Position numbers and translations under genes: made by a program | Assembly (NCBI GenBank): GCA_041391425.1 | Contig: JAWKNZ010000013.1 | Span: 436-64,435, forward strand | DNA from: Bdellovibrionota bacterium | GTDB lineage: Bacteria; Bdellovibrionota_B; Oligoflexia; Oligoflexales; JAWKNZ01 | Length of the DNA stretch: 64,000 bases | Direction: 5' to 3' | Notes under the pieces: model-generated | What the model saw: only the letters and a program-made list of their open reading frames with translations | Told to the model about the DNA's origin: nothing | Databases searched by the model: none | Part shown: positions 5,539 to 58,327 of the stretch, one piece after another | How the letters are laid out: each line of letters opens with the position of its first letter | Numbering within the stretch: the first letter of the stretch is position 1

Positions 5539-6858
5539 ATGCAGATTGACGTATCATTGCTAGCAAATGCGATGATTTCCAATGAGTTTATCTTGCTATG
5601 GAGTTTATCTATCGTTGCCTACGCTTTCTTCTGGATTTTTAAGATGATTTTCAGATCTAAAGCGCTTATAGGGGAGTTTAAAGGTGCAATGCATTTGCTT
5701 GCTCAACTTAAAATATTGGAAGGTAGTGATAAAAAGTTTAAGAAAAAGTTAGATGTCTTTTTAAAGCTTCCATTAATAGCGCCATTTGCCGATCGGCTAT
5801 TTGTTAGCGATAGGTGTGATAGCCTTATTCTCGACTCACAGGTCATTAGTGCTATAAATGAAGAAAGCATCATTAGCCCAAGGTTGGATAAAAACGCCTA
5901 TCAAAGTATCGGCAGTCATCTAAGTGGTATGGGGGTTTTAGGTACATTTATTGGCCTTTCGGCAAGTATATATTTGGCCCGTAAGGGTCTTATGGGAAGC
6001 AACTTTTTGCAGATGAGAGATTCTTTAGATCAGCTTTTGGGTGGAGCTGCCTTGGCTTTTTGGACATCAATGGTAGGGGTAGGCTGTTCGCTTCTATACA
6101 ATAGAGTGGAAATAGCGGTCTTTAGTACGTTGAGGTATAAGTTACAAACTCTTATTGAAAGCATCGCAACGATAGGCAAGCGTTTTTCGCAGGAAGAGGT
6201 TTCCATAAACCAGTTAAATGCCAATACGAGTCAATTGCGCTATCTTGAACAGATAGCGGGATCATTGGAGGCACTTAACAATAAACAACAAAAAATTCAG
6301 GAAGAAATATTACGTGAAGTAGTCAATGATTTTCGCAATGGATTAGCAGAAGGTGCGCCGCAGGAGATGAAAGCGATAGCCGATAATTGCCTTAGAATCT
6401 TATCATCGATCAAGGCAAATTTAGGTGAGATGCAAGATTCTAATAGTTATTTGGTGGAAACAAGTAAGAAAATTGGCGAGGCTATTGAAGAGCCTTTACA
6501 AAAGGCCGCAGGCGTGTTCCATACAAAAATAATTGATACTATTGAACGAATGGAACGGGCATTGGATGGAGCTACTTCGCAAATCGGCAAAAATATGATG
6601 ACTGAATCTGTAGCTGCAACACAGCAGATACAAGAGCCTATTATACAACTGGGACAAATTGTACATAAGTTAACGGATAAGACTAGGCGTGCGACCGATG
6701 ATTGGACGGATGCTATGATATCTATGGAAAGGCTAGTCAGAATGCTTGACAAAGAGCGCAAGCATTTTGCCAATGGCAATGAAAAAAAAGCCAGCCCTGA
6801 TTTCGAACATCCCGTCATAAATTTCAACCGTGAAAATTTTACAGACGATAAATTTTAA
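5539..6858 (+). CDS. MotA/TolQ/ExbB-family proton-channel protein with a long C-terminal helical tail (ZorA-like architecture)
   Basis: 439 aa. TM1 spans about residues 16-38. The channel motifs are ...SGMGVLGTFIGLSASIYLA... and ...GGAALAFWTSMVGVGCSLLYNRVE.... A roughly 245-aa charged, Q/E/K-rich tail follows. AAAGGA lies before the ATG. Confidence 0.7.
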   Translation: MQIDVSLLANAMISNEFILLWSLSIVAYAFFWIFKMIFRSKALIGEFKGAMHLLAQLKILEGSDKKFKKKLDVFLKLPLIAPFADRLFVSDRCDSLILDSQVISAINEESIISPRLDKNAYQSIGSHLSGMGVLGTFIGLSASIYLARKGLMGSNFLQMRDSLDQLLGGAALAFWTSMVGVGCSLLYNRVEIAVFSTLRYKLQTLIESIATIGKRFSQEEVSINQLNANTSQLRYLEQIAGSLEALNNKQQKIQEEILREVVNDFRNGLAEGAPQEMKAIADNCLRILSSIKANLGEMQDSNSYLVETSKKIGEAIEEPLQKAAGVFHTKIIDTIERMERALDGATSQIGKNMMTESVAATQQIQEPIIQLGQIVHKLTDKTRRATDDWTDAMISMERLVRMLDKERKHFANGNEKKASPDFEHPVINFNRENFTDDKF

Positions 6859-6898
6859 TGTTTTAAGCTGTTTTTAGATTTTTAGAATATGGGCAATC

Positions 6899-7717
6899 AT
6901 GCGTAATCATAACTATGAAAAAAAACAAAATTTATGGATGTCTTTATGCGATATTTTAGCAGCCATGATTTTTGTTTTTCTAATTGTTTTAGCAGTGTTT
7001 TGTATTCAGTATGAAAGTGATCAAGCTCATTTTAAGAATACTAAAGAAATCTTACAAAGTTCCATGAACACCCGGAAAGAAATTTTAACTAAACTGCAAG
7101 AAGCGTTGCGATCTTACGGGTTGAACTCGGAAGTCATTTTACAGGCCGGAATTCTCAGGCTTAATAATGAAATTATTTCATTCCCTGCATCTGAAGCAAA
7201 TCCTAATACAATCAACCTTCAGAATATTGGTGTGTTGTCCAAAATTATGTCAGAAGTCCTTCCTTGCTATGCGAAGCAAAAGCCTGCTGTTTTAACCACT
7301 GAGGAGTTGCCAATATGGTGTGATGTGGGCTTAAAAAATATTGGAGCATCAGTTTCTGTAAATAACTGTTCAAATACCCGTAGCGTAAATATTGAAACCA
7401 TTATGATAGAAGGGCATACCGATCCAACACCTGTTAAAAAAACAGCATCATATCCTGATAACTTCGCTTTGTCGGCGATGAGAGCTTCAAATATTTGGAA
7501 ACTATTAAAGGCTTGCCAGCCGAATTTAGCTGAACTTTATAATGAAAATAACAATAAGATCTTTGGAGTGAGTGGCTATGCATATCTGCGCCCGGCACAA
7601 AAAAATCCGAACGATCCCCGAAATAGGCGTATTGATGTGCGCTTTGTTATGGAGCAACCCAAAGAAGCCTTTATAAATCTTTCGAAACGTCTGTTAGGAC
7701 CGCATCAGCAATTTTAG
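6899..7717 (+). CDS. MotB/OmpA-family protein (ZorB-like): N-terminal TM with conserved Asp plus C-terminal OmpA-like peptidoglycan-binding domain
   Basis: The TM segment ...LWMSLCDILAAMIFVFLIVL... carries an Asp at a MotB-like position. The C terminus reads ...IEGHTDPTP...NFALSAMRASNIWKLL...NRRIDVRFVM. Confidence 0.75.
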   Translation: MRNHNYEKKQNLWMSLCDILAAMIFVFLIVLAVFCIQYESDQAHFKNTKEILQSSMNTRKEILTKLQEALRSYGLNSEVILQAGILRLNNEIISFPASEANPNTINLQNIGVLSKIMSEVLPCYAKQKPAVLTTEELPIWCDVGLKNIGASVSVNNCSNTRSVNIETIMIEGHTDPTPVKKTASYPDNFALSAMRASNIWKLLKACQPNLAELYNENNNKIFGVSGYAYLRPAQKNPNDPRNRRIDVRFVMEQPKEAFINLSKRLLGPHQQF

Positions 7718-15125: not shown

Positions 15126-15254
15126 ATCTGCAGTTGGTAGTTTCTATATACGAATCTTTGGAGAAACTATAGTCGAGTCAGGTGGGTTCGTCTACTACAT
15201 TGTCATAACTGAATAATTTATATGTTTAGGACGGAAGTTTTGTACAGGGTTCTT

Positions 15255-15438
15255 CTAGGGCGTGTTGACGTTTCATTTCCTACTACGAGCCAAACCCTTG
15301 AGTCACAACGTTGTCATGATTTCAAAAATTATCCTCAATGTACATCTAGTACACCTCCGGTAATTTTTGAAACCCTTCCTAGCTGCGACTTTCAAGTATT
15401 TTTCTCTCGCTACGAAAATGAAACGTCAACACGCCCTA
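15255..15438. mobile_element. MITE-like hairpin element, copy 1 of 3 (about 185 bp)
   Basis: It runs CTAGGGCGTGTTGACGTTTCATTTCC...CGAAAATGAAACGTCAACACGCCCTA. The terminal inverted repeats span more than 20 bp. It is nearly identical to 23607-23790 and 28569-28753. Confidence 0.8.
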
Positions 15439-23477: not shown

Positions 23478-23606
23478 GATTATTACCAAATTGACTGTTT
23501 ATCAGATTCGTATCGCATCTAACCTTTAACGATAGTAGCAGTTTTTTGCTTGAGGTTCAGCTGAAACTTAGTAATTTGTGCTGTGGCTTATTATTCCAAT
23601 ATTAAT

Positions 23607-23790
23607 CTAGGGCGTGTTGACGTTTCATTTCCTACTACGAGCCAAACCCTTGAGTCACAACGTTGTCAGGGTTTCAAAAATTATCCTCAATGTACATCTA
23701 GTACACCTCCGGTAATTTTTGAAACCCTTCCTAGCTGCGACTTTCAAGTATTTGTCTCTCGCTACGAAAATGAAACGTCAACACGCCTAG
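23607..23790. mobile_element. MITE-like hairpin element, copy 2 of 3
   Basis: It has the same sequence as 28569-28753 except for the right terminus (ACACGCCTAG versus ACACGCCCTAG). Confidence 0.8.
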
Positions 23791-24141
23791 TGGTATCCAT
23801 GCTTTATAAGGTATGAACGCGGTCTATATTGAAGGGGTGTTATTATAATTATTGGTTTTATAAATAAAAATTTTACATTTTTGTTAAATATTCAATTTAG
23901 CGTAATGACAGTTGATGCTGTTTAGTTGTTATATATGTCAGCAGAAGTATTTTGTCTCTATGAAGCATTCTCATGGATATTAATAGTTTCTATTTGGCCT
24001 TTATGTTAGTTGCTTATGGGATATTTGTGGGAGGTCTTATTTTTTTATTATAAAATACCTCTGTAAAACAAGTTGAAGAAAAGGCCTTGTCTTCTTAAAA
24101 TAGGGAAAATGGCCTTTTGAAAATGTTTTATAGGGGATACT

Positions 24142-26162: not shown

Positions 26163-28106
26163 TTACAAGCTTCGGCTAAGAATCAACTTTATTGATGTTG
26201 AGCCTATTTTCAAATTTGGGATAGTAATAATACCGTCTATATCAGCTTTTACTTCACCGCTGGTGTCTCCATAAGACCATTTAATTGTCTCATATGGTAA
26301 TGTGATAAACTTCTTCGTTCTGCGGATCGTTACGTCTGCTACCACTGGTAATGCTCCTATATAACCTTCTCCAACAACAGGCAGATTTTCATCTATCATT
26401 TTAGCTGGAGGATTCGTTCTTATAAAAATTGGCATTTCCAGGTGTATATAATCTTCAATTATGTTATTGCTATCCCAAGATAAAAACCTATTTTTTGCTC
26501 CTCTAAGATCATTAGATATAAATTCACCTGATTGCATGTCATATACAGGCGGCTTATTGTCTAAAGAGCTATTGGAAAATGCAGGGAAGGGTTTATCACG
26601 AGAAAAATATGCTTCCTCTGGTAAGGAGCCTGTCCACCCATCTGGTAACTTTGGATCAGCCACACCATGGCCACCTTGGTCCCAAAAAACTCTATGCCCA
26701 ATTTTATATTTCTGTAATGTTTGTACCCAGCTATTATTAGTAATTGGGCTAGCTGTACTTATATGATGGAATTTAATAGTTTGATCTTGCACACCGTTAT
26801 ACGTTTGAAAAGGGATATTTCTTATCGATTTGTCATCTCTTAAGGCACGTGTTATATCATAGCGATCCCATATATTCATTCCGCCATCATCCAAAAGTTG
26901 CATTGATCTAGGGCCCCAATATTTTTCTAGAGCATACTTATGTCCTTCTTGTGCTAAGCTCATAGAAGTCATACCAACAACAGCACCAACTTCAGCAAGA
27001 TGATAACCATATCTAATTGCGAAGAAAATGGAGCCTGATCCCCCCATTGATGCACCAGATATTTTCACTCGATCTCGATCTACTCCGGGGAATGTTCGTG
27101 TCACCCAATCCAACAAGTGCAGAATACGTCGTTGAGATGTATTTAGTACTATTGTATCGGGTGTTGGTGTATTTGGATATTTTTCATGCTGTCCAGTCCA
27201 CCATCCCACATAAGGTTCTGATGGCCCTATTCCAAATTGGTTACCATTTCCATTTCCATATGTTGGAATGCCTCCACTACCATGAAGAGTAATCGATAGT
27301 GGAAGTTTGTTTGTGATAGAGGCAGCATCAGGAACGATAACATTCATTTCTATTGAGCGGCCTGCTTGCTCAGATGTATCAAGAAAATTATCGGTTATCA
27401 TGTTTACTCGGTAAAGCTTTGCTTTCCAAATTTCCTCAACGCTAATAATGCTTGGATCTGGAGGAGTGATCGTATCTAAAATATCAATCATAATGTTCTT
27501 TTTGTGTGGTTGTCCATTATCAAAAATATTAACATCGACTGAATAAGCTTTACCCCCTTGTGTAAAATCTGGGTTAAGTATTAGTATTTTATTAAATTCA
27601 TCAAATTCACTTCCTGCTGGAAGTCCATCAAAAAATATACGAGAAGTTTCTTTCGCTTTAACTTTGATTACAAGACGTTCTTTCTCTTTTATTGATATTT
27701 TGGGAATGGAGTCGGCTAATAAATCGATTAATGTTGTTGGCTTTTCATCTGTTACCGGTTTTGGAGCAGGTTCTGTTGGAGGATTTTCTTCTGTAACTGG
27801 TGTATCTTCTGTAACTGGTGTATCTTCTGTAACTGGTGTATCTTCTGTAACTGGTTTATCTTCTGTAACTGGTTTATCTTCTGTAACTGGTGTATCTGCA
27901 GTTGTTTGAGAATTATTTTGTTTTGCTTGTGTAATGCTCTGATCCATTATTTGAGAATCAGTTTGAGCCTTTACAGTATCTGCTGTTTTTGGGTTTGTTA
28001 TGTTATCTCCTCTATTATTTATTTCCTCAGAGGAGTTGTAGGAAGAGCACGACAAATAAATAAAGTATAAAAGGCAACCTGCTTTTTTTACATGATTAAG
28101 TGGCAT
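26163..28106 (-). CDS. lipoprotein alpha/beta-hydrolase (esterase) with an N-terminal PVTED(K/T) tandem-repeat linker
   Basis: It has lipobox YLSC, ...SITLHGSGG..., and the nucleophile elbow ...ISGASMGGSG... (GxSxG). Seven consecutive PVTE(D/E)x hexapeptides are present. Confidence 0.7.
   Translation of the reverse strand: MPLNHVKKAGCLLYFIYLSCSSYNSSEEINNRGDNITNPKTADTVKAQTDSQIMDQSITQAKQNNSQTTADTPVTEDKPVTEDKPVTEDTPVTEDTPVTEDTPVTEENPPTEPAPKPVTDEKPTTLIDLLADSIPKISIKEKERLVIKVKAKETSRIFFDGLPAGSEFDEFNKILILNPDFTQGGKAYSVDVNIFDNGQPHKKNIMIDILDTITPPDPSIISVEEIWKAKLYRVNMITDNFLDTSEQAGRSIEMNVIVPDAASITNKLPLSITLHGSGGIPTYGNGNGNQFGIGPSEPYVGWWTGQHEKYPNTPTPDTIVLNTSQRRILHLLDWVTRTFPGVDRDRVKISGASMGGSGSIFFAIRYGYHLAEVGAVVGMTSMSLAQEGHKYALEKYWGPRSMQLLDDGGMNIWDRYDITRALRDDKSIRNIPFQTYNGVQDQTIKFHHISTASPITNNSWVQTLQKYKIGHRVFWDQGGHGVADPKLPDGWTGSLPEEAYFSRDKPFPAFSNSSLDNKPPVYDMQSGEFISNDLRGAKNRFLSWDSNNIIEDYIHLEMPIFIRTNPPAKMIDENLPVVGEGYIGALPVVADVTIRRTKKFITLPYETIKWSYGDTSGEVKADIDGIITIPNLKIGSTSIKLILSRSL
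27787..27897. repeat. 18-bp in-frame tandem repeat (about 6 units) inside the esterase gene
   Basis: The unit TCTTCTGTAACTGGTGTA/TTTA is repeated head to tail and encodes the PVTEDT/PVTEDK units on the minus strand. Confidence 0.85.
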
Positions 28107-28568
28107 TTTTAGACACCTTAAGCTTAAAATTTATGAAATCGGATAAAAGAAATCCGCGCGTTCAAGAATTACAGATCGGTAAATTCTTAAAGAATCTTTA
28201 AGAATTTTGAAATTATAATAAATTGGTATTAATTATAGAACGTTATAATAATTTGAGTCAGTGTGCCAATCTTTGTGTGTCAGGAAAACTTGTTTGTCTC
28301 TCTCAATGCAATCGAGAGTAACATGATGAAGCGTGAACGCTACAATAATGCTATCAAAAAGCTGTAGGGGTTGACACTTGAGGTGTTTTGTCCGGGTGTG
28401 CGTAGTCAAAAGCACACTAGACGGCAGCTATCTTGCCCACCAAAGCATCCTCCACTAGAATGGTGACAGGCAATCTAATGTGTGATTATATATCCAGTTG
28501 ATACTATCTATCGCCATTTGGTGGGATAATAAAAAGATAAATTTAAGATATTGTTAAACAGCAGCTTT

Positions 28569-28753
28569 CTAGGGCGTGTTGACGTTTCATTTCCTACTAC
28601 GAGCCAAACCCTTGAGTCACAACGTTGTCAGGGTTTCAAAAATTATCCTCAATGTACATCTAGTACACCTCCGGTAATTTTTGAAACCCTTCCTAGCTGC
28701 GACTTTCAAGTATTTGTCTCTCGCTACGAAAATGAAACGTCAACACGCCCTAG
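28569..28753. mobile_element. MITE-like hairpin element, copy 3 of 3
   Basis: CTAGGGCGTGTTGACGTTTCATTTCC...GAAAATGAAACGTCAACACGCCCTAG. It lies 58 nt downstream of the MotA-like gene stop. Confidence 0.8.
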
Positions 28754-28810
28754 TCAACGTTATTTCAATAATTTTCGTCGCGCTGTAGTCTTGTGCTTTA
28801 TAAAATTCGG

Positions 28811-29734
28811 CTAAGCAGCAGAATTTTTTCCTCCTTTAGCAATTTGATTGTTTATGGCTTGTTCAGCAAGTGCCTCCATTGGATCTTTGTGTTCGTCGAA
28901 TTCAGATACTTCAACCTCAGTGATGCTATTGCCTTCGCTTCTAGTCCATAGAACGTCTAATGAGTTTTCAAATCGGTCGACGATGCTGACGAATAGCTTA
29001 TCTGCAGAAAACAAGGTATTACAGATACTCATTGTAACGGAAAGAATGATTCCTACGATTGATGTGCTCATAGAGAATGAGACTCTTAAAAGAAACTCAT
29101 CCATTACTAACTTTGTTCCTTCAATGTCCTGCAAATCCATTTTTCCTAATTCAGGCAATGCGTTCATAATACCCAGAAAGGTACCAAAGATACCTCCTAC
29201 AATGAATATTCCTGGCAGTATGTTGAGGATGTCATTAAATATGGATGTTGGAAAAACTCCAAAAACTTTGCTGAAGCAAGGGTTGTTTTGAAAAACGATT
29301 TTTGCAATTTCTAAAAGTTTTGGGTGATCTTTTTGGGGTTTAAGGTATTTGATTTGTTTTAAGGTGTCTTTTACTAAAAAAGCGGATCCATGTTGGATGA
29401 GGAATACTCGGTCCATAATTGGTCCAATTGCATCTGGTTTACGCCGCTTCATTATAGCGCGGATTTCAAAAATTTCGTAATAGGTTTTTTCGAGTATTTT
29501 TTTTGTAGTTAGGAAAAAAGATTTTACCGCTACTCCGTGTGTTTCATCGATGAATTTATGTACTCTTTTTTCGAACTCTTTTGCAAACCAAGATTCACGA
29601 GATATCGTATAATAGATTAATATACGCATGGCTATTGCAAAGGCAAAAATGGCTATCATCGTCGGCATAAGAAGATCTGTAGAAAATGAGACGATGAATT
29701 CGACAAAATCTTGTATTAGGCCTTTTTCACTCAT
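28811..29734 (-). CDS. MotA/TolQ/ExbB-family proton-channel protein
   Basis: 307 aa. It has an N-terminal TM, a roughly 130-aa cytoplasmic insert, then ...LPGIFIVGGIFGTFLGIMNALPELG... and ...SFSMSTSIVGIILSVTMSICNTLF.... Confidence 0.7.
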   Translation of the reverse strand: MSEKGLIQDFVEFIVSFSTDLLMPTMIAIFAFAIAMRILIYYTISRESWFAKEFEKRVHKFIDETHGVAVKSFFLTTKKILEKTYYEIFEIRAIMKRRKPDAIGPIMDRVFLIQHGSAFLVKDTLKQIKYLKPQKDHPKLLEIAKIVFQNNPCFSKVFGVFPTSIFNDILNILPGIFIVGGIFGTFLGIMNALPELGKMDLQDIEGTKLVMDEFLLRVSFSMSTSIVGIILSVTMSICNTLFSADKLFVSIVDRFENSLDVLWTRSEGNSITEVEVSEFDEHKDPMEALAEQAINNQIAKGGKNSAA

Positions 29735-29756
29735 AATACTATTCCTTCATAAAGTT

Positions 29757-31667
29757 TTAATCATTTAAATTGAATTTAATGATTACTTTCTGTTCTTTTT
29801 TGCAATTGTATTGTTTACAATAATATTTCACATCTAAGCCTTTTTCTGCACCTGCACCGCTTACACCTTCGGCAAGAAAACTACGGCCTGTTACTTTTAT
29901 CTTGGGGAGTAGATCTGATTGGTATTGATAAGTGAATTTTTCTTTGTCGAATATATAGCGAAAAATTTCTCTAGCGCGGTTATAACTTAAGTCAAGGTTG
30001 TAATTTACGGCTGCTCTGTCTTCTGGTGCCAGGCTTTTGGGATCAACATACTTTCCCCGATATGTTGGTGAAGCAAATCCAACAATTTCTACAGAAGATA
30101 TTTTCTTAGCGATCTTCTTATTTTTAAATAATGACTTTGAATATACCGGCATAAATTTTCTCAATATTTTTTTCATACCTTCTTTAAGAGTATATTTTCC
30201 AGTATCAAAATATTCGTCGTTGAATGTTAGAAGAACGTCACCAGTCTTTGAGTCAACTTTTGCATCTATCCCTGATCTTCTAAAGTCGTCTTTTATAGAC
30301 TTAGTAAGCCGACGGCGATCATTGCGTGACTTTTTGACATTATCTAAATCTTTTTTGAGCTCTGTCTGCTGATTTTCGAGAGTATTTATGTAATCTTTAA
30401 ATTTAGAATTATCATTTCGTGCTTGTTCCAGTTTTTCTTGATTCTCTTTTGCCTTTTGTGCTAGAGCAGATAGTTGTTTTTCTAGATCTTGCTTGTCTTT
30501 TTTGACTTGGTCTGCAAATGCTTTTTGTTTTTCAGCCTTTTCTGCTGCTGATGATTTTTCTTTTGATAATGCTGAATCAAATTCAGCCTTTCTCTTTTCT
30601 AATTCTTGTGCGAAATTCCCTTTGAGTTCTTTAATTTCTTTATTGTACAACGCATTCGCTTTTTCTAATTCTCCAGTTAATTCGGCCTTTTCTTGCTTTT
30701 GGGTATTGATGACCTTGGTAGCTGTAGCGAGTTGCTTGTTGATGTTCGTTAAATCTGTATTTGCTACATTGAGCTGTTTAGACATTGAATGATTCTTGGA
30801 TTCTAGAGAAGCAATTTTTTGTTCTGAAGTTTTCTTTAAATTTTCTATTTGCCGCTTTAGTTTTGCACTGGAAATTTTCTTTTGCTTTCTTGCGTTTTTT
30901 AGTGCATTGATCTTTTTTGCTAATGTGTTGTTTATAGAATCGATTTGTTTGTTGTTTTCTTCTATAATCCTCTTTTTTTCAGCTATGAGTAGCGAGAGCT
31001 CTTCTAATTCTTGATTTTTAGCACGTAGTATTCTTTTCTTTTCTGCTATGATATCTTCACTCTTCTCGATTTCTTCTTGTTTGTCTTGGATAATATGCTC
31101 TTTTTGATCTATAATTTCATCTCTTTCTTTGATTTCACCTAGTTGTTTTTCGATAGTGTTTTCTTTTTCAACTATTTGTTGGCGTTTTCGTTCTAATTTC
31201 ACATCTCTATCTTTTATTCCGGCTTTTGCTAATAGATTTACATTAATGATATTGCGGATGATTTGCTGGTATTTGTTTAGTGCTTTTTCTTTCTTTTCAT
31301 TCTCAAGTGCTTGTGCTCTTAAGTTTACCTTTTCTTTTTGAGCTTCGTCCTGTAACAAGTCTAATTTGGACATAAGTTCTTTATATGTTTCTACTTCTGT
31401 TTCAGAAGCTTTGGTATCTAGATATTCATCTTTAAGGGTTTCATATACAGCTTGCTCTTTTTTTAGAGCGGATCTTTCAGCTTGAAGTTGTTGAAATTGT
31501 ATGTTTTTTTGTAAGCTAAAAGTACCACTTCTCAAGCTTGATGTTACATATAAAAGTAGAAAAACTAGAGATAATACCATAAAGAGGTCGCTATATGACG
31601 ACCACTGTGAGCCATCATTTTGATTGTCTTTAATTTTATTGTAATTAAGACTCATAGCTTGTCCCAT
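29757..31667 (-). CDS. MotB/OmpA-family protein with a roughly 400-aa coiled-coil insert
   Basis: 636 aa. The N-terminal TM ...WSSYSDLFMVLSLVFLLLYV... resembles the MotB plug/TM with its Asp. Residues 50-455 are K/E/Q-rich heptad-like sequence. The C terminus ...VEIVGFASPT...NLDLSYNRAREIFRYIF...IKVTGRS... is OmpA-like. Confidence 0.7.
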   Translation of the reverse strand: MGQAMSLNYNKIKDNQNDGSQWSSYSDLFMVLSLVFLLLYVTSSLRSGTFSLQKNIQFQQLQAERSALKKEQAVYETLKDEYLDTKASETEVETYKELMSKLDLLQDEAQKEKVNLRAQALENEKKEKALNKYQQIIRNIINVNLLAKAGIKDRDVKLERKRQQIVEKENTIEKQLGEIKERDEIIDQKEHIIQDKQEEIEKSEDIIAEKKRILRAKNQELEELSLLIAEKKRIIEENNKQIDSINNTLAKKINALKNARKQKKISSAKLKRQIENLKKTSEQKIASLESKNHSMSKQLNVANTDLTNINKQLATATKVINTQKQEKAELTGELEKANALYNKEIKELKGNFAQELEKRKAEFDSALSKEKSSAAEKAEKQKAFADQVKKDKQDLEKQLSALAQKAKENQEKLEQARNDNSKFKDYINTLENQQTELKKDLDNVKKSRNDRRRLTKSIKDDFRRSGIDAKVDSKTGDVLLTFNDEYFDTGKYTLKEGMKKILRKFMPVYSKSLFKNKKIAKKISSVEIVGFASPTYRGKYVDPKSLAPEDRAAVNYNLDLSYNRAREIFRYIFDKEKFTYQYQSDLLPKIKVTGRSFLAEGVSGAGAEKGLDVKYYCKQYNCKKEQKVIIKFNLND

Positions 31668-55089: not shown

Positions 55090-55742
55090 AAGTTTTTTTT
55101 ATTTTATATTTTGTCTGCTTCATATTTTTGGGGCTACCTAAAAGTGCTATGGCTGGATTTTTAGTAGGTGGTGGCCCGACTTGGAATGTGTTCTCGATGC
55201 AGCCGGAAGATGATGAAGCAACACCAAACTATCAAGGAATCGGAGGACAGTTTAAATTAGGTTACTCTTTCCAGCAAATATTTGATATTTCTGCCCATGT
55301 GCAATATAGCCCTGGAAATGTAGGGATGGTTAAATTGGAAGGTGAAGGTGCTAATTTAGCTTTTTACGGTGGAGAAGTCGCAGCGCGTATTCTCGGTTCT
55401 GTATATTTTGCTTTACGTGGTGGTAAAGCTTACTATCAATTGTTAAAAAAGACTCGTGAGGATGAAATTACTGGGGCTTGGCAGGGACCAGCTGGGGGCT
55501 TTTCTTTAGGTGGAATTGTTCCCTTAAACAAATATAACTTTATCCAAATCAGCTGTGATTTTTTGCACCTTGTTGCTAGCCGAGAAGGGGGAAATGCAAA
55601 CGAGTTGGATGAAGAAAGTGGTAAGAGAAGGGTTGATCAATTTAGCATTGCTATAAATTATATTTATAATGGATATAAAAATTCAGTTATCGAGAACTCA
55701 TTTTTTAGTCAATATTTGAACTCTATTTTATTTTGGGAGTAG
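55086..55742 (+). CDS. putative outer-membrane beta-barrel protein
   Basis: It has a signal peptide (…SAMA) and alternating G/aromatic beta-strand-like segments (...GGQFKLGYSF..., ...FSLGGIVPL..., ...FSIAINYIYN...). Confidence 0.5.
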   Translation: MKVFFILYFVCFIFLGLPKSAMAGFLVGGGPTWNVFSMQPEDDEATPNYQGIGGQFKLGYSFQQIFDISAHVQYSPGNVGMVKLEGEGANLAFYGGEVAARILGSVYFALRGGKAYYQLLKKTREDEITGAWQGPAGGFSLGGIVPLNKYNFIQISCDFLHLVASREGGNANELDEESGKRRVDQFSIAINYIYNGYKNSVIENSFFSQYLNSILFWE

Positions 55743-56410
55743 TAAAATTGGAACAAGCGGAATTGGGATTTAACATCGTTGAGAAGCTTCTTGCTTTGAC
55801 ATTATTGGGCACCGAGTGGGTTTTGTGGTTATTGTTAGCATTAAGTGTTATCTCTATTGCTATAATGCTGGAAAGGGCAATTTTTTTTAGCCGCATAAGG
55901 CTTGATTATACACGCTTCACCAAGAGGCTCAACCGTTTACTAGCTGATGAAGATATTGATGGTGCGAAAAAGCTCTGTGAGGAAAGCCAATCTCTTGAAT
56001 CGCAAATGGTATTGCAGGGTCTTAATCATGCGGAGTTGGGCGTTGTGGCTATGGCTGGGAGTATGGAAGGTTTCCGTATTGGAGAAAAGCAGAAGTTAGA
56101 CCGCGGTTTGGTTGTCCTTGGTACTTTGGGAAATAATGCCCCTTTTATTGGATTATTTGGAACAGTTGTTGGGATTATTATTGCTGTTAACAATTTAGCT
56201 AAGGATATCGATGGCGGATTTGCCGTGGTTATGGCGGGTATATCTGAGGCCTTGGTGGCTACCGCAATTGGCTTGCTTGTGGCGATACCTGCGGTTATCG
56301 CTTTTAACTTTTTTAACCGTATTGTGAAACGCATTATGGCGAACTCAGAGGCTATAAGCCGAGTCGTCTTGACTTATTTTCATGAACAACAAGGTGTTGA
56401 AAAACCGTAA
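55733..56410 (+). CDS. exbB: MotA/TolQ/ExbB proton-channel protein
   Basis: ...LGNNAPFIGLFGTVVGII... and ...GISEALVATAIGLLVAIPAVIAFNFF... are canonical ExbB/TolQ motifs. Confidence 0.85.
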   Translation: MGVVKLEQAELGFNIVEKLLALTLLGTEWVLWLLLALSVISIAIMLERAIFFSRIRLDYTRFTKRLNRLLADEDIDGAKKLCEESQSLESQMVLQGLNHAELGVVAMAGSMEGFRIGEKQKLDRGLVVLGTLGNNAPFIGLFGTVVGIIIAVNNLAKDIDGGFAVVMAGISEALVATAIGLLVAIPAVIAFNFFNRIVKRIMANSEAISRVVLTYFHEQQGVEKP

Positions 56411-56419
56411 GGAATTGAT

Positions 56420-56863
56420 ATGGCGGGAAGCACATCAGATGATGAAGATGAAATAACAGGCATCAATGTCACTCCTTTAGTGGATGTCATGCTGGTTTTA
56501 CTTGTTATCTTCATGTTGACGGCTAATTATGTGGTCAACAGAGCGATAGAGGTTAAGCTACCCAGCGCAGAAACTGGAGATGAAAAAGTAACCACTTTAA
56601 ATATGGCGTTTCTGCTTGATAAGGATTCAAAGCTTTTTTTGGATGGAAAGCCAGTGAGTTATGATGAAATTGGTGAGAAAATTCGAGGGGTTATTGCTAT
56701 AGGAGAGGCAAGTGCAAAAAACCCCCAAGCTATGATTACAGCAGATGAACGCACCCCTCATGGTGCGGTTGTCAAACTCATTGATACTGTGAGGAAAAAC
56801 GGTATAAAGGAGTTTGCCATTAATGTAGAAGTTCCTTCGACTAACGGCTCAAAGAATGAGTAA
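56420..56863 (+). CDS. exbD: ExbD/TolR biopolymer transport protein
   Basis: ...ITGINVTPLVDVMLVLLVIFMLT... is the ExbD/TolR TM with its Asp. The size is 147 aa. Confidence 0.85.
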   Translation: MAGSTSDDEDEITGINVTPLVDVMLVLLVIFMLTANYVVNRAIEVKLPSAETGDEKVTTLNMAFLLDKDSKLFLDGKPVSYDEIGEKIRGVIAIGEASAKNPQAMITADERTPHGAVVKLIDTVRKNGIKEFAINVEVPSTNGSKNE

Positions 56864-56885: not shown

Positions 56886-58327
56886 TTGGCAAATTCAATA
56901 CAAAAACTGAATGAAGATTGGTGCCGCGAATATATCTCTGAATATGTTTTTAAGCTACGTCCTGAGGAGTATCAGAATCAACATCCTATATGGCCTGGTA
57001 GCGTAGGACTTGAGGTGGAAATGCTTCCTGTCATAGCGCAATCAGACGGTTTGCCACCTAAGTTGGTCCCTTTGCAAGGGCATAGCAATACTTTGGCTAG
57101 TTGTTTAAAACGCTTATCGCTTAAAAATAATTGGCACTTTCATGAGCAGCCAGGTCCTAAAGGCGATGGAGATCTCCTTATAAAGGTAGCGATGGAAAGA
57201 GGGGATGCATTGACGTTTGAGCCTGGCGGTCAACTGGAGTTTTCTTCAGTCCCTTATCCTTGTTTAGGGGACGCCGTTAAGCGCCTACATACTGTACAAG
57301 ATGAACTTAAAAAGTCTCTTGGAGAATGCGGTATATCGCTTCTACAAATAGGGCAGAATCCCTTTTATGGGGTTGATGAAGTTGGATTGCAGATGCCCAA
57401 AGAGCGCTATCAAGCGATGGACCAGTATTTCTCAAATATCGGACCTTGGGGTCAAAGAATGATGCGTCTTACCTGTACGCTGCAGGTTTGCTTGGACTTT
57501 GGCCCCCATGAAACTATTATGGCCCAGAGGTATATACTTGGGCAATTGCTTGCGCCATTTGCTACAGCTATCTTTGCAAACTCACCTTTTTTTCAAGAAA
57601 TTTGACTGAAAGCCTTAGTTTTCGCTCTTTAGCATGGAGAGAGTTAGATCCCTCTAGAACCGGTCTACCAAAAGGGCTTGAGCTAATTTTACGTCAGTTA
57701 AATAAAGCCAGCTGTGTCGACGTTTATACGGAAATGGTACTTGATTCACAGGTTATCTTTGTTGAAGCTTTGGGTTATAAGGTTCCTGTAAAACCATTTA
57801 CGTTTCGGCAATGGTTAAGCGAATCTATTGAAGGTATAAACCCAACGGTCAAAGATTTTGAAACACAGCTATCTTTGATGTTTCCTGAAGTGCGGCCTCG
57901 AAATTTTTTGGAAATTAGATCCATCGATTGCCAATCTCAAGTATGGCAAGTTGCTCCAGCAGCTTTTTGTACAGGGATTTTATATGATGATCAAAATTTG
58001 ATTGAGGCGATAGACTTATTGGCACCAGAGTTGCCACGATTAGACTCATTATTAGTGAAAGCTGCTAACGGATTGAGAGATGAAGTTGTTCGTGGATATG
58101 CTCAAAGGTTGATGGAAATGGCTATAGAAGGTTTTTCAAGGCTTCCTTCTTGTTTTTTACTTGAAGGATCATTAAGAAATATCGAGAATTTTAACAAAAT
58201 TTTTACATCGCAAGGTAGAACACCTGGCGATGATTTAAAAGAAGCTTATCAAAAAAGATCCAATAACCAATCTTTGTACGAAGTGATTTGTTCAGTAGAT
58301 AGGCGTTGGCAGGAACTAGATGTTTGA
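56886..58327 (+). CDS. gshA: glutamate--cysteine ligase, plant/GCS2 type, split by a frame break at 57587-57605
   Basis: ...VGLEVEMLPV..., ...FEPGGQLEFSS... and ...FANSPFF are in the first frame. They continue as ...LTESLSFRSLAWRELDPSRTG... in the second frame (compare plant GCL EPGGQFELSG and ANSPF......S.R...W...D..RTG). One extra T in the T7 run restores a single ORF. Confidence 0.7.

What the first reader, a model, noticed from the sequence alone, without database searches (positions are those of the whole stretch)
28811..31667. Second atypical stator pair: a MotB/OmpA protein carrying a roughly 400-residue coiled coil, followed by a MotA-like channel protein
Seen in the sequence:
- The 636-aa protein begins with a MotB-like TM/plug (WSSYSDLFMVLSLVFLLLYV).
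- It ends with an OmpA-like peptidoglycan-binding domain (NLDLSYNRAREIF...VTGRS).
- Between them lie about 400 residues of K/E/Q-rich heptad-like sequence.
- The next gene, 22 nt downstream, is a 307-aa MotA/ExbB-family protein (GGIFGTFLGIM; STSIVGIILSVTMS).

Inference: with MotB topology (N-in, C-out) the coiled coil must be periplasmic. At roughly 0.15 nm per residue, 400 residues would extend about 60 nm, well beyond what I understand to be a typical Gram-negative periplasmic width of a few tens of nm. The rod must therefore fold back, lie parallel to the membrane, or reach through or along the outer membrane.

Context:
- Here the long helical extension is on the B subunit, whereas the 5539-7717 pair carries it on the A subunit.
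- A canonical ExbB/ExbD pair is also present at 55733-56863, so the window holds three architecturally distinct 5:2-type motor modules.
- MITE copy 3 sits 58 nt downstream of this pair.
Basis: partly seen in the sequence, partly recalled or inferred. Interest (0 to 1): 0.7.

Follow-up and report, generated by a model that had tools for sequence, protein, structure and literature searches.

The report
Zorya-like motor with long periplasmic rod
This gene pair encodes an uncharacterised membrane rotary motor, related to the Zorya anti-phage motor rather than to the flagellar one. Its cell-wall-binding subunit carries a rod about 60 nm long. The pair is conserved across the predatory-bacteria phylum Bdellovibrionota, which suggests an unknown housekeeping machine rather than a defence system.

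Summary
A 636-aa protein (B, 29757-31667, minus strand) has one MotB/ZorB-type transmembrane (TM) helix with an invariant Asp. It then has about 410 proline-free heptad residues and a C-terminal peptidoglycan-binding domain. A 307-aa three-TM channel protein (A) follows 22 nt downstream.

The "flagellar stator" framing is only partly right. By profile and by predicted fold, both proteins are closest to ZorB and ZorA of the Zorya system. Neither reaches the Pfam thresholds for MotB_plug, MotA_ExbB or OmpA.

The pair is not a Zorya system:
- the gene order is B then A;
- A has no tail;
- ZorB normally has no linker, whereas here about 400 residues are inserted;
- no effector genes are nearby;
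- A has no homologue on plasmids or phages.

A is 52-70% identical across Bdellovibrionota. B directly precedes A in every locus with enough upstream sequence (77 of 80). In 61 of 64 loci with enough flank there is a third gene, C: FHA domain, 800-1300-aa coiled coil, one TM helix, then a conserved C-terminal domain. C is absent from this window.

Rod length varies (249-471 aa between anchors) but is heptad-quantised.

Best reading: a proton-driven 5:2 motor tethered to the wall by a rigid periplasmic rod, with a housekeeping role. Its function is unknown and it is a new variant of a known kind.

The parts
29757..31667 (-). Gene B: ZorB/MotB-like axle subunit, 636 aa by the longest ORF; probably 632 aa starting at 31655.
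   Evidence: ORF. PADLOC ZorB1 E 3.8e-30. 415 homologues, the top 120 being 36-57% identical and mostly full-length. Fold match to ZorB 8vvn_A.
31533..31604 (-). B residues 22-45: the single TM helix, with invariant Asp27 (equivalent to MotB Asp32 and ZorB Asp26).
   Evidence: Only one hydrophobic segment. Y25, D27, L28, F36, L37 and Y40 are invariant. Profile match to the ZorB TM helix, 8qyd_F residues 10-57. Pfam MotB_plug E 0.081, below threshold.
31188..31532 (-). B residues 46-160: conserved helical 'neck' of fixed length.
   Evidence: The distance from the TM helix to the ALNKYQQ motif is 104 or 105 residues in all 162 orthologues. It contains many invariant residues, including Y75, K79, Y95, L98, N131, Y133, Q134 and R138. 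AlphaFold2 confidence is low here.
30273..31187 (-). B residues 161-465: variable-length coiled-coil rod.
   Evidence: No Pro and 4 Gly in residues 55-465. Heptad contrast z = 7.5. Anchor-to-anchor length is 249-471 aa, and 134 of 162 values fall in two classes modulo 7. Predicted helices at 110-261, 267-369 and 374-464.
29760..30272 (-). B residues 466-636: ZorB-type OmpA-like peptidoglycan-binding domain with an invariant Cys617/Cys622 pair.
   Evidence: Profile match to type II ZorB 8vvi_A, E 1.3e-6, and weakly to MotB 6ysf and 8ucs. Y556, N557, L560 and R564 have the spacing of the EcZorB peptidoglycan-binding residues Y151, N152, L155 and R159. The only plasmid hit is the ZorB of a canonical Zorya operon. 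Pfam OmpA does not match.
29735..29756 (-). The 22-nt B-A junction with an AAGGA ribosome-binding site; the two genes form an operon.
   Evidence: Sequence read directly. The B-then-A order is conserved, with B directly upstream of A in 77 of 80 loci and the other three cut off upstream.
28811..29734 (-). Gene A: tail-less ZorA-like pentamer subunit, 307 aa, with three TM helices.
   Evidence: ORF. 1096 homologues. AlphaFold2 model with mean pLDDT 79.5. Best Foldseek matches are EcZorA 8qyk and 8qyd (E 5e-4 to 8e-4, TM-score 0.45-0.54), followed by ExbB and TolQ. Profile match to ZorA 8vvn_C, E 1.8e-4.
29000..29242 (-). A residues 165-245: TM2, periplasmic loop and TM3 channel core, with invariant P174, T185 and S225 (equivalent to EcZorA P136, T147 and S184).
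   Evidence: Invariant columns. Residue correspondence read from the HMMER alignment to 8qyh. The roles of the ZorA residues are taken from PMC11946911.
28107..28810 (.). Intergenic stretch downstream of A, where relatives carry gene C. It holds no trace of C and contains a MITE-like repeat at 28568-28754.
   Evidence: tblastn with 67 C-family ORFs finds nothing in the window. An HMM of the C-terminal domain of C has its best hit at E 1.3. Repeat copies are listed.

Best explanation
B and A form an ion-driven (probably proton-driven) 5:2 rotary motor of the ZorAB lineage that has become a chromosomal family confined to Bdellovibrionota.

**Proposed assembly.**
- Five A subunits would surround the two TM helices of a B dimer. 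Each A has three TM helices, a membrane-proximal cytoplasmic domain and only a 60-residue C-terminal stub where ZorA has its tail.
- Protonation and deprotonation of B Asp27, reached through the A Thr185/Ser225 filter, would drive A5 to rotate relative to B2.
- B2 leaves the membrane as a fixed-length conserved neck. It continues as a rigid, parallel, heptad-phased coiled-coil rod about 62 nm long here (roughly 50-85 nm across the family).
- The rod ends in a dimeric ZorB-type peptidoglycan-binding domain. The axle is therefore fixed to the cell wall at a point tens of nm away, and the rod must lie nearly parallel to the membrane.

**Partner.** In relatives the motor works with a third operon product, C: FHA domain, 800-1300-aa cytoplasmic coiled coil, one TM helix and a conserved periplasmic domain. 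I propose that C takes the place of the ZorA tail in trans, docking on A as TonB and TolA dock on ExbB and TolQ.

**Function.** I take it to be a housekeeping link between the cell wall and a cytoplasmic scaffold, transducing force or signal across the envelope. I do not take it to be flagellar rotation or anti-phage defence.

**Shown versus inferred.**
- Shown: homology, domain order, conservation of the catalytic and peptidoglycan-binding residues, rod properties, synteny, and taxonomic restriction.
- Inferred: 5:2 stoichiometry, rotation, a parallel extended rod, the A-C contact, and the housekeeping role.
For: **Lineage.**
- B matches PADLOC ZorB1 at E 3.8e-30, split around the insertion.
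- A's best family matches are all ZorA models.
- By profile against solved structures, A is closest to ZorA 8vvn_C and 8qyh, and B to ZorB 8vvi_A and 8qyd_F.
- By fold, A is closest to EcZorA and then ExbB and TolQ, with no MotA among the 50 matches listed. B is closest to ZorB 8vvn_A.

**Functional residues.** B D27, A P174, T185 and S225, and B Y556, N557, L560 and R564 are invariant or nearly so. They correspond to residues that are essential in Zorya.

**Periplasmic rod.**
- B has a single TM helix and an invariant Cys617/Cys622 pair.
- The heptad signal has z = 7.5.
- The neck (104/105 residues) and the C-terminal domain (160/161 residues) have fixed lengths. The rod varies from 249 to 471 aa, with 83% of lengths in two classes modulo 7 that differ by 3.
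- Length differences are single blocks, including a tandem duplication spanning one predicted helix break.

**Family.**
- A is 52-70% identical in 80 loci from Bacteriovoracia, Bdellovibrionia and Oligoflexia. There are only 292 clusters at 50% identity among 1.84 billion representatives.
- The B-then-A order is conserved, with B directly upstream of A in 77 of 80 loci.
- C is present in 61 of 64 loci with enough flank, and 51 of 57 C proteins carry an FHA domain.
- No other neighbouring gene is conserved.
- A has no homologue on plasmids or phages.
- The tree of A roughly follows taxonomy.
Against: - No experiment or complex model supports the stoichiometry, the rotation or the A-C contact.
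- Gene C is absent from this window, so the local instance may be incomplete, or C may lie elsewhere in the genome.
- The AlphaFold2 monomer of B has low confidence (pLDDT 67, pTM 0.38). It shows helix breaks at residues 262-266 and 370-373 that could be hinges allowing fold-back.
- Pfam OmpA does not match, and the position that is His in ZorB (GH[TS]) is Phe in B (GFASPT). Peptidoglycan binding is therefore inferred, not shown.
- High conservation and roughly taxonomic clustering do not prove a housekeeping role.
- Presence in Bdellovibrio bacteriovorus itself could not be checked.
- The modulo-7 statistic uses sequences that are not phylogenetically independent. By unique lengths, only 18 of 38 fall in the two classes.
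Confidence: 0.55

Rival explanations
1. Divergent Zorya-type anti-phage (or anti-invader) system. B's wall-binding domain on a long rod senses envelope perturbation, the motor turns, and C acts as scaffold or effector in place of the ZorA tail plus ZorC/D.
For: The closest relatives of both proteins are ZorA and ZorB. The residues needed for Zorya function are conserved. A second ZorAB-like pair lies in the same window.
Against: - There is no ZorC, D, E, F or G or any nuclease or helicase nearby, and C has no PADLOC hit.
- C has no enzymatic domain, only FHA and coiled coil.
- A has no tail, the gene order is inverted, and a linker is inserted where ZorB has none.
- A is 52-70% identical across three classes of one phylum, and its tree roughly follows taxonomy.
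- A is absent from plasmids and phages.
- NCBIfam Zorya scores are far below the cut-offs (35 against 400 and 28 against 190).
Confidence: 0.15
2. Rotating-shaft model, as in GldLM/PorLM. A5 is held still, perhaps by C, and the B2 rod is the rotor, transmitting torque through the periplasm to a distal target. The C-terminal domain would be an adaptor rather than a fixed wall anchor.
For: - The rod is rigid, proline-free and heptad-phased, and its register between the TM helix and the C-terminal domain is conserved. That is what a torque-transmitting shaft needs.
- GldM is a precedent for a B-type subunit with a long periplasmic extension (established knowledge; PMC9389320 reviews the 5:2 motors).
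- The usual His of the wall-binding motif is replaced by Phe.
Against: - The four residues that bind peptidoglycan in EcZorB are conserved, so static anchoring is the simpler reading.
- A 62-nm shaft exceeds any plausible periplasmic width.
- No outer-membrane partner gene is conserved nearby.
Confidence: 0.13
3. Atypical flagellar stator (MotAB/PomAB paralogue) or flagellar periplasmic scaffold.
For: The TM-Asp motif and a weak MotB_plug match (E 0.081). Weak profile matches of the C-terminal domain to MotB and MotS (E 0.03-0.08). Bdellovibrionota are mostly flagellated (established knowledge).
Against: - A has three TM helices, not four. It lacks a MotA-type torque interface, and no MotA structure appears among the 50 fold matches listed.
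- Pfam MotA_ExbB is below threshold.
- No flagellar gene is a conserved neighbour in 80 loci.
- A leash of about 60 nm is incompatible with holding a stator at a fixed radius around a rotor.
Confidence: 0.05
4. Not an active motor. B would be a structural periplasmic spacer or wall tether (like Lpp or TolA), held in the membrane by a degenerate A scaffold.
For: Long periplasmic coiled coils can set envelope geometry (Lpp; established knowledge). All family scores are below the curated thresholds.
Against: The ion-path residues D27, T185, S225 and P174 are invariant over large evolutionary distances. That is unexpected if ion flow were dispensable.
Confidence: 0.08

Closest known systems
ZorA-ZorB motor of Zorya anti-phage systems (EcZorAB 8QYD; Shewanella type I 8VVN; Sulfuricurvum type II 8VVI)
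   Same: - It is the closest by sequence profile and by predicted fold for both subunits.
- A has three TM helices with a membrane-proximal cytoplasmic domain.
- B has an Asp in its TM helix, and the Thr/Ser filter and Pro kink of A are conserved.
- The peptidoglycan-binding domain has the Y-N-x-x-L-x-x-x-R motif and conserved cysteines.
   Different: - A lacks the roughly 70-nm cytoplasmic tail.
- B has about 400 residues of coiled coil inserted where ZorB joins its TM helix to the wall-binding domain without a linker.
- The gene order is B then A.
- There are no ZorC, D, E, F or G genes.
- The partner is instead an FHA, coiled-coil and TM protein.
- The family is restricted to one phylum with high sequence conservation, and is not found on plasmids or phages.
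Flagellar stator MotAB/PomAB
   Same: A member of the same 5:2 superfamily. B has an N-terminal TM helix with Asp and a C-terminal OmpA-like wall-binding domain, with a linker between them.
   Different: - MotA has four TM helices and a torque-generating cytoplasmic interface; A does not.
- The MotB linker is tens of residues, not about 400.
- The Pfam models are not reached.
- There is no flagellar gene context.
GldLM/PorLM gliding and type 9 secretion motor
   Same: A 5:2 motor whose B-type subunit (GldM/PorM) carries a long dimeric periplasmic extension. It is the only well-studied precedent for an extension on the B side (established knowledge).
   Different: GldM is built of globular domains about 18 nm long and has no wall-binding domain. 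It reaches outer-membrane partners. No sequence or fold similarity was detected here.
TolQRA-Pal and ExbBD-TonB
   Same: A motor plus a third single-pass partner that docks on the A pentamer, and a long helical periplasmic segment (TolA domain II). ExbB and TolQ are the next-best fold matches of A.
   Different: Here the long helix is on the axle subunit itself and ends in the wall-binding domain. The third partner, C, has its long helix in the cytoplasm, the opposite orientation to TolA and TonB. A separate TolQR/ExbBD-like pair exists in the window.
NCBIfam PRK09039-type 'peptidoglycan-binding protein' (NF006542-NF006546)
   Same: From memory, these are proteins with a TM helix, a coiled coil and an OmpA-like domain. 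This is a lead only.
   Different: B gives no match to these models at E <= 1. Only the other pair's ZorB-like protein touches their OmpA part. Their architecture was not examined here.

Membership tests
5:2 ion-driven motor superfamily (MotAB, ExbBD, TolQR, GldLM, ZorAB) | A subunit with the MotA/ExbB/ZorA helical fold | tested here: met
   AlphaFold2 model with pLDDT 79.5. The Foldseek matches with E <= 0.001 are the four EcZorA entries; ExbB and TolQ follow at E 2e-3 to 1e-1 and prob mostly above 0.9.
5:2 ion-driven motor superfamily (MotAB, ExbBD, TolQR, GldLM, ZorAB) | Invariant acidic residue in the single TM helix of the B subunit | tested here: met
   D27 is invariant in 29 orthologues. 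The TM helix aligns to that of ZorB.
5:2 ion-driven motor superfamily (MotAB, ExbBD, TolQR, GldLM, ZorAB) | Polar Thr/Ser ring in the A helices that face the Asp | tested here: met
   T185 and S225 are invariant and align with EcZorA T147 and S184.
5:2 ion-driven motor superfamily (MotAB, ExbBD, TolQR, GldLM, ZorAB) | A5B2 stoichiometry and rotation | not testable with these tools
   Only single chains can be modelled here.
Flagellar MotAB stator | Pfam MotA_ExbB and MotB_plug at their gathering scores | tested here: not met
   14.9 bits against 22.9, and 13.0 bits against 24.
Flagellar MotAB stator | Four-TM MotA with a cytoplasmic torque-generating interface | tested here: not met
   Three TM helices. 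No MotA or PomA among the 50 fold matches listed.
Flagellar MotAB stator | Flagellar gene neighbourhood | tested here: not met
   Only B, A and C are conserved neighbours in 80 loci.
Zorya anti-phage system | ZorB-homologous B subunit | tested here: met
   PADLOC ZorB1 E 3.8e-30. Type II ZorB 8vvi E 1.3e-6. Fold match to 8vvn_A. However, NCBIfam ZorB2 scores 35.5 bits against a cut-off of 400.
Zorya anti-phage system | ZorA with a long C-terminal cytoplasmic tail | tested here: not met
   A ends about 60 residues after TM3. ZorA models match only residues 165-290.
Zorya anti-phage system | Wall-binding domain joined to the ZorB TM helix without a linker | tested here: not met
   About 420 helical residues lie between them. 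The canonical state is described in PMC11946911.
Zorya anti-phage system | Adjacent effector genes (ZorC/D, ZorE, ZorF/G) | tested here: not met
   The neighbours in the window are an esterase and asparagine synthase. Gene C of relatives has no PADLOC hit.
Zorya anti-phage system | Anti-phage activity | not testable with these tools
   This needs an experiment.
OmpA-like peptidoglycan-binding domain | Pfam OmpA (PF00691) at its gathering score | tested here: not met
   No hit at E <= 1 for the window protein. An orthologue scores 17 bits against 27.2.
OmpA-like peptidoglycan-binding domain | Conserved wall-binding motif (Y-N-x-x-L-S-x-x-R-A) | tested here: met
   N557, L560, S561, R564 and A565 are invariant and Y556 nearly so. 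The spacing equals that of EcZorB Y151, N152, L155 and R159.
OmpA-like peptidoglycan-binding domain | Binds peptidoglycan | not testable with these tools
   This needs a pull-down with purified B 466-636.

The most novel reading that the evidence does not exclude
B, A and C form a previously unrecognised trans-envelope rotary machine confined to Bdellovibrionota. It would be a Zorya-type motor in a housekeeping role, with its long extension moved from the cytoplasmic tail of A to a 50-85-nm periplasmic rod on B. A giant cytoplasmic coiled coil, regulated through an FHA domain, would be supplied in trans. If so, the Zorya motor and this machine descend from a common module that couples the cell wall to cytoplasmic filaments. 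The family could then explain some aspect of envelope mechanics, shape or surface movement in predatory bacteria.
Probability: 0.35. Interest if true: 0.85.

Novelty: new variant of a known kind. Interest (0 to 1): 0.7.

Why it matters
- Only a handful of functional classes of 5:2 ion-driven motors are known: flagellar, Ton, Tol, gliding/type 9 secretion, Agl and Zorya. I found no description of a Zorya-related motor that is conserved like a core gene across a whole phylum.
- In this family the long extension sits on the periplasmic side of the axle, and the motor has a giant FHA and coiled-coil membrane partner. If confirmed, it would add a new class and give a non-defence relative for understanding how Zorya evolved.
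- The heptad-quantised variation in rod length is a natural experiment on how register and length of a periplasmic rod matter.
- The system is testable in culturable members such as Peredibacter, Halobacteriovorax and Bacteriovorax.

Tried and rejected
1. **Pfam and NCBIfam naming.** Only sub-threshold hits were found. The precomputed accessions PF28082, PF24161 and PF27241 on homologues could not be resolved. They are not reported by the local Pfam copy and appear in no paper.
2. **Search for gene C in the window.** tblastn and an HMM of its C-terminal domain both found nothing.
3. **Homology search with the C-terminal part of C from L001.** It returned one hit only, so the search was wasted.
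4. **Identity of the periplasmic domain of C.** A profile search against solved structures gave only noise. Pfam and PADLOC found nothing beyond FHA.
5. **Correlation between B length and C length.** Spearman rho was 0.02, so there is no evidence that the two coils are matched in length.
6. **Recent paralogy between the two ZorAB-like pairs of the window.** Rejected: BLASTP E 0.026 and 0.003, over short segments only.
7. **Names for distant A representatives.** All were 'hypothetical protein'.
8. **Literature.** Nothing was found on this family: and the MotAB evolution paper PMC12505986.
10. **Fold-back of the rod.** This could not be decided, because model coordinates are not returned. Single-block indels, a tandem duplication across one predicted break and the heptad quantisation argue for an extended rod.

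Full report
**1. The observation.** Two co-directional ORFs lie on the minus strand. B is 29757-31667 (636 aa) and A is 28811-29734 (307 aa). They are separated by 22 nt that carry an AAGGA ribosome-binding site.

The start of B is ambiguous. M1 is at 31667 and M5 at 31655. NCBI annotates 632 aa, and orthologues begin MSLDY..., so M5 is the likelier start.

B has a single hydrophobic segment, residues 27-45. Residues 55-465 contain no proline and four glycines and are rich in K, E, L, A and Q. Their heptad a/d hydrophobic contrast exceeds all 300 shuffles, with z = 7.5. AlphaFold2 predicts helices at 25-85, 89-100, 110-261, 267-369 and 374-464, then an alpha/beta domain; mean pLDDT is 67.

The window comes from a Bdellovibrionota MAG with locus tags R3B45_14680 and R3B45_14685.

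**2. Which family.** Pfam gives only sub-threshold MotB_plug (E 0.081) and MotA_ExbB (E 0.023), and no OmpA hit.

The informative matches are all to Zorya components:
- B matches PADLOC ZorB1 at E 3.8e-30, in two stretches that flank the coiled coil. A matches many ZorA models, but only over its TM2-TM3 core.
- Against solved structures, the A profile is closest to Shewanella type I ZorA (8vvn_C, E 1.8e-4) and E. coli ZorA.
- The profile of B's C-terminal domain is closest to Sulfuricurvum type II ZorB (8vvi_A, E 1.3e-6). MotB and MotS appear only at E 0.03-0.08.
- The A model (pLDDT 79.5) matches EcZorA best (E about 5e-4, TM-score 0.45-0.54), then ExbB and TolQ. No MotA is listed.
- The B model matches ZorB 8vvn_A (E 2.4e-5).
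- The only plasmid-borne relative of B's C-terminal domain is the ZorB of a canonical A-B-C-helicase Zorya operon on a Nostoc plasmid.

**3. Functional residues are kept.**
- B Asp27 is invariant and corresponds to ZorB Asp26.
- A Pro174, Thr185 and Ser225 are invariant or nearly so. They align with EcZorA Pro136, Thr147 and Ser184, the kink and the ion filter.
- B Tyr556, Asn557, Leu560 and Arg564 reproduce the spacing of the EcZorB peptidoglycan-binding residues Tyr151, Asn152, Leu155 and Arg159, whose mutation abolishes wall binding and defence.
- An invariant Cys617/Cys622 pair sits in the same domain. EcZorB has functionally required disulfides.

These points argue for an active, wall-binding motor and for a periplasmic location of everything after the TM helix.

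**4. Why it is not a Zorya system.**
- The gene order is inverted.
- A ends about 60 residues after TM3, where ZorA has a roughly 70-nm tail.
- In ZorB the wall-binding domain is fused to the TM helix without a linker (PMC11946911). B instead has about 420 helical residues there.
- No ZorC, D, E, F or G gene is nearby. The flanking genes are an esterase and asparagine synthase.
- NCBIfam Zorya scores are an order of magnitude below the cut-offs.

**5. The family.**
- A has 1096 homologues; the best 120 are 54-69% identical over the full length.
- There are only 292 clusters at 50% identity among 1.84 billion representatives.
- A scan of one genome per species found 172 genomes. The 80 fetched loci are labelled Bacteriovoracaceae, Halobacteriovoraceae, Peredibacter, Pseudobdellovibrionaceae, Bdellovibrionales, Oligoflexales, Silvanigrellaceae and Pseudobacteriovorax.
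- Two contigs carry other labels. L049 'Thioalkalivibrio' carries identical ORF coordinates and B-domain match to a Bdellovibrionales contig from the same study, and L034 is labelled 'Auribacterota'. Both look mis-binned.
- B lies directly upstream of A in every locus that extends far enough (77 of 80); complete copies are 534-806 aa.
- A neighbour-joining tree of A roughly follows the taxonomic labels.
- A has no relative on 72,556 plasmids or 50,697 phage records.

This pattern fits a vertically inherited chromosomal module better than a mobile defence island. It does not prove that.

**6. A third gene, invisible from this window.** Clustering the ORFs of the loci shows one further conserved neighbour, gene C.
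- C is present in 61 of 64 loci with at least 4.5 kb beyond A. In nearly all of these it lies immediately downstream of A on the same strand; in two loci it is adjacent on the opposite strand.
- Full-length C copies are 822-1548 aa.
- 51 of 57 copies begin with an FHA domain.
- A coiled coil of 800-1300 residues follows, then one TM helix and a conserved domain of about 190 residues with no detectable relatives.
- Since FHA domains are cytoplasmic, the giant coil is cytoplasmic and the last domain periplasmic.
- The two closest relatives of the window (L001 at 70% and L081 at 68% identity in A) both have C.
- The window does not have C. In its place is a 704-nt intergenic stretch holding a MITE-like repeat.
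- B and C lengths are uncorrelated (rho 0.02).

**7. The rod.** Across 162 distinct orthologues:
- The distance from the TM helix to the ALNKYQQ motif is fixed at 104 or 105 residues.
- The distance from the start of the wall-binding domain to the C terminus is nearly fixed, at 160 or 161 residues in 147 of the 162.
- The segment in between ranges from 249 to 471 residues.
- 134 of the 162 lengths fall into two classes modulo 7 (3 and 6), which differ by a stutter-like 3 (chi-square p about 1e-55).
- The sequences are not independent. By unique lengths the figure is 18 of 38.

Length differences are single blocks. In two orthologues a tandem duplication spans one of the predicted helix breaks, which is hard to reconcile with that break being a hairpin turn.

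I therefore favour a continuous, phase-preserving parallel coiled coil. At 0.148 nm per residue, residues 46-464 give about 62 nm, and the family range is roughly 50-85 nm. The distance from inner membrane to peptidoglycan is about 9 nm in E. coli. The rod must therefore lie nearly parallel to the membrane, or fold back. I could not exclude fold-back because model coordinates are not returned.

**8. Mechanism proposed.** A5B2 would be a proton-driven rotary unit. B2 would be an axle fixed to the wall through a long rigid rod. A5 would rotate and couple on the cytoplasmic side to C. A has a conserved cytoplasmic domain (residues 41-165) and a conserved C-terminal FDEHxDP motif. C would replace the ZorA tail in trans, much as TonB and TolA dock on ExbB and TolQ.

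The output is unknown. I favour a housekeeping link between the wall and a cytoplasmic scaffold. The rivals are Zorya-like defence, a GldM-like rotating shaft, a flagellar accessory and a passive tether. Their weights are given in the rival list.

**9. Context.**
- The pair at 5539-7717 is also ZorAB-like. Its A is 439 aa with a short tail (PADLOC E 6e-16) and its B is 272 aa with a canonical GHTD...LSxxRA motif (E 3.6e-56). It has no effector genes and is only remotely related to the pair studied here.
- The pair at 55733-56863 is ExbB/TolQ-like plus ExbD/TolR-like.

**10. Verdict.**
- I found no literature on the family.
- It is a new variant of a known kind of machine, with an unexpected architecture and an unexpected partner.

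Noticed in passing
window 5539-7717 (+): A second ZorAB-like pair in the canonical A-then-B order. The ZorA-like protein is 439 aa with a helical tail of about 200 aa (PADLOC E 6e-16). The ZorB-like protein is 272 aa (PADLOC ZorB1 E 3.6e-56) with a GHTD...LSAMRA motif. No ZorC, D or E follows; the next genes are on the opposite strand. It is an orphan or minimal Zorya-like module, only remotely related to the pair studied here.
   Followed up: partly
window 28568-28754, 23606-23791 and 15253-15438: A MITE-like repeat of about 187 bp in three copies that are 98-99% identical. Each is about 72% self-complementary and has terminal inverted repeats (CTAGGGCGTGTTGACGTTTCATTT...). One copy sits 56 nt after the stop codon of A, in the spot where relatives carry gene C.
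   Followed up: partly
L001-L081 (for example L010 9059-12427, L001 2239-6885, L081 11566-15186): Conserved third gene C: FHA domain, 800-1300-aa coiled coil, one TM helix and a conserved domain of about 190 aa with no known relatives. It is absent from the window. In L057 and L058 it is adjacent but on the opposite strand. L055 and L059 (Silvanigrellaceae) lack it within 8 kb, and L008 has only a fragment.
   Followed up: yes
window 56886-57605 and 57602-58327 (+): Two overlapping ORFs match consecutive halves of Pfam GCS2, glutamate-cysteine ligase family 2 (profile positions 35-164 and 171-282). This is probably one gene split by a frameshift or a sequencing error.
   Followed up: no
window 26163-28106 (-): A 647-aa predicted secreted esterase directly downstream of the pair. 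It has tandem (K/T)PVTED repeats near its N terminus and a Pfam Esterase match at E 9e-6. It is unrelated to gene C.
   Followed up: no
window 55733-56863 (+): An ExbB/TolQ-like protein (Pfam MotA_ExbB E 4.8e-27) followed by an ExbD/TolR-like protein (best NCBIfam hit TolR, E 4e-22, below the cut-off). No tolA, tolB or pal follows; the next genes are GCS2 and a large glutamate dehydrogenase.
   Followed up: partly
homologues P0003, P0009 and others (A family); P0286, P0316 (B family): The precomputed Pfam accessions PF28082.1 (on about 30% of the listed A homologues), PF24161.2 and PF27241.1 (on B homologues) are not reported by the local Pfam copy and appear in no paper. A recent Pfam entry may already cover the A family.
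   Followed up: partly
L049 (SKOF01000531, 'Thioalkalivibrio sp.') and L034 (JAYRIK010000205, 'Candidatus Auribacterota'): Two contigs that carry the pair are assigned to other phyla. L049 has the same ORF coordinates and the same B-domain match as L051 (Bdellovibrionales, same study), so these look like binning errors rather than transfers.
   Followed up: partly
B orthologues P0319 (735 aa) and P0397 (662 aa), alignment A2 columns 381-480: An insertion of about 80-95 residues in the rod looks like a tandem duplication of the following segment, including the conserved EKLSAAEKA 'break'.
   Followed up: no
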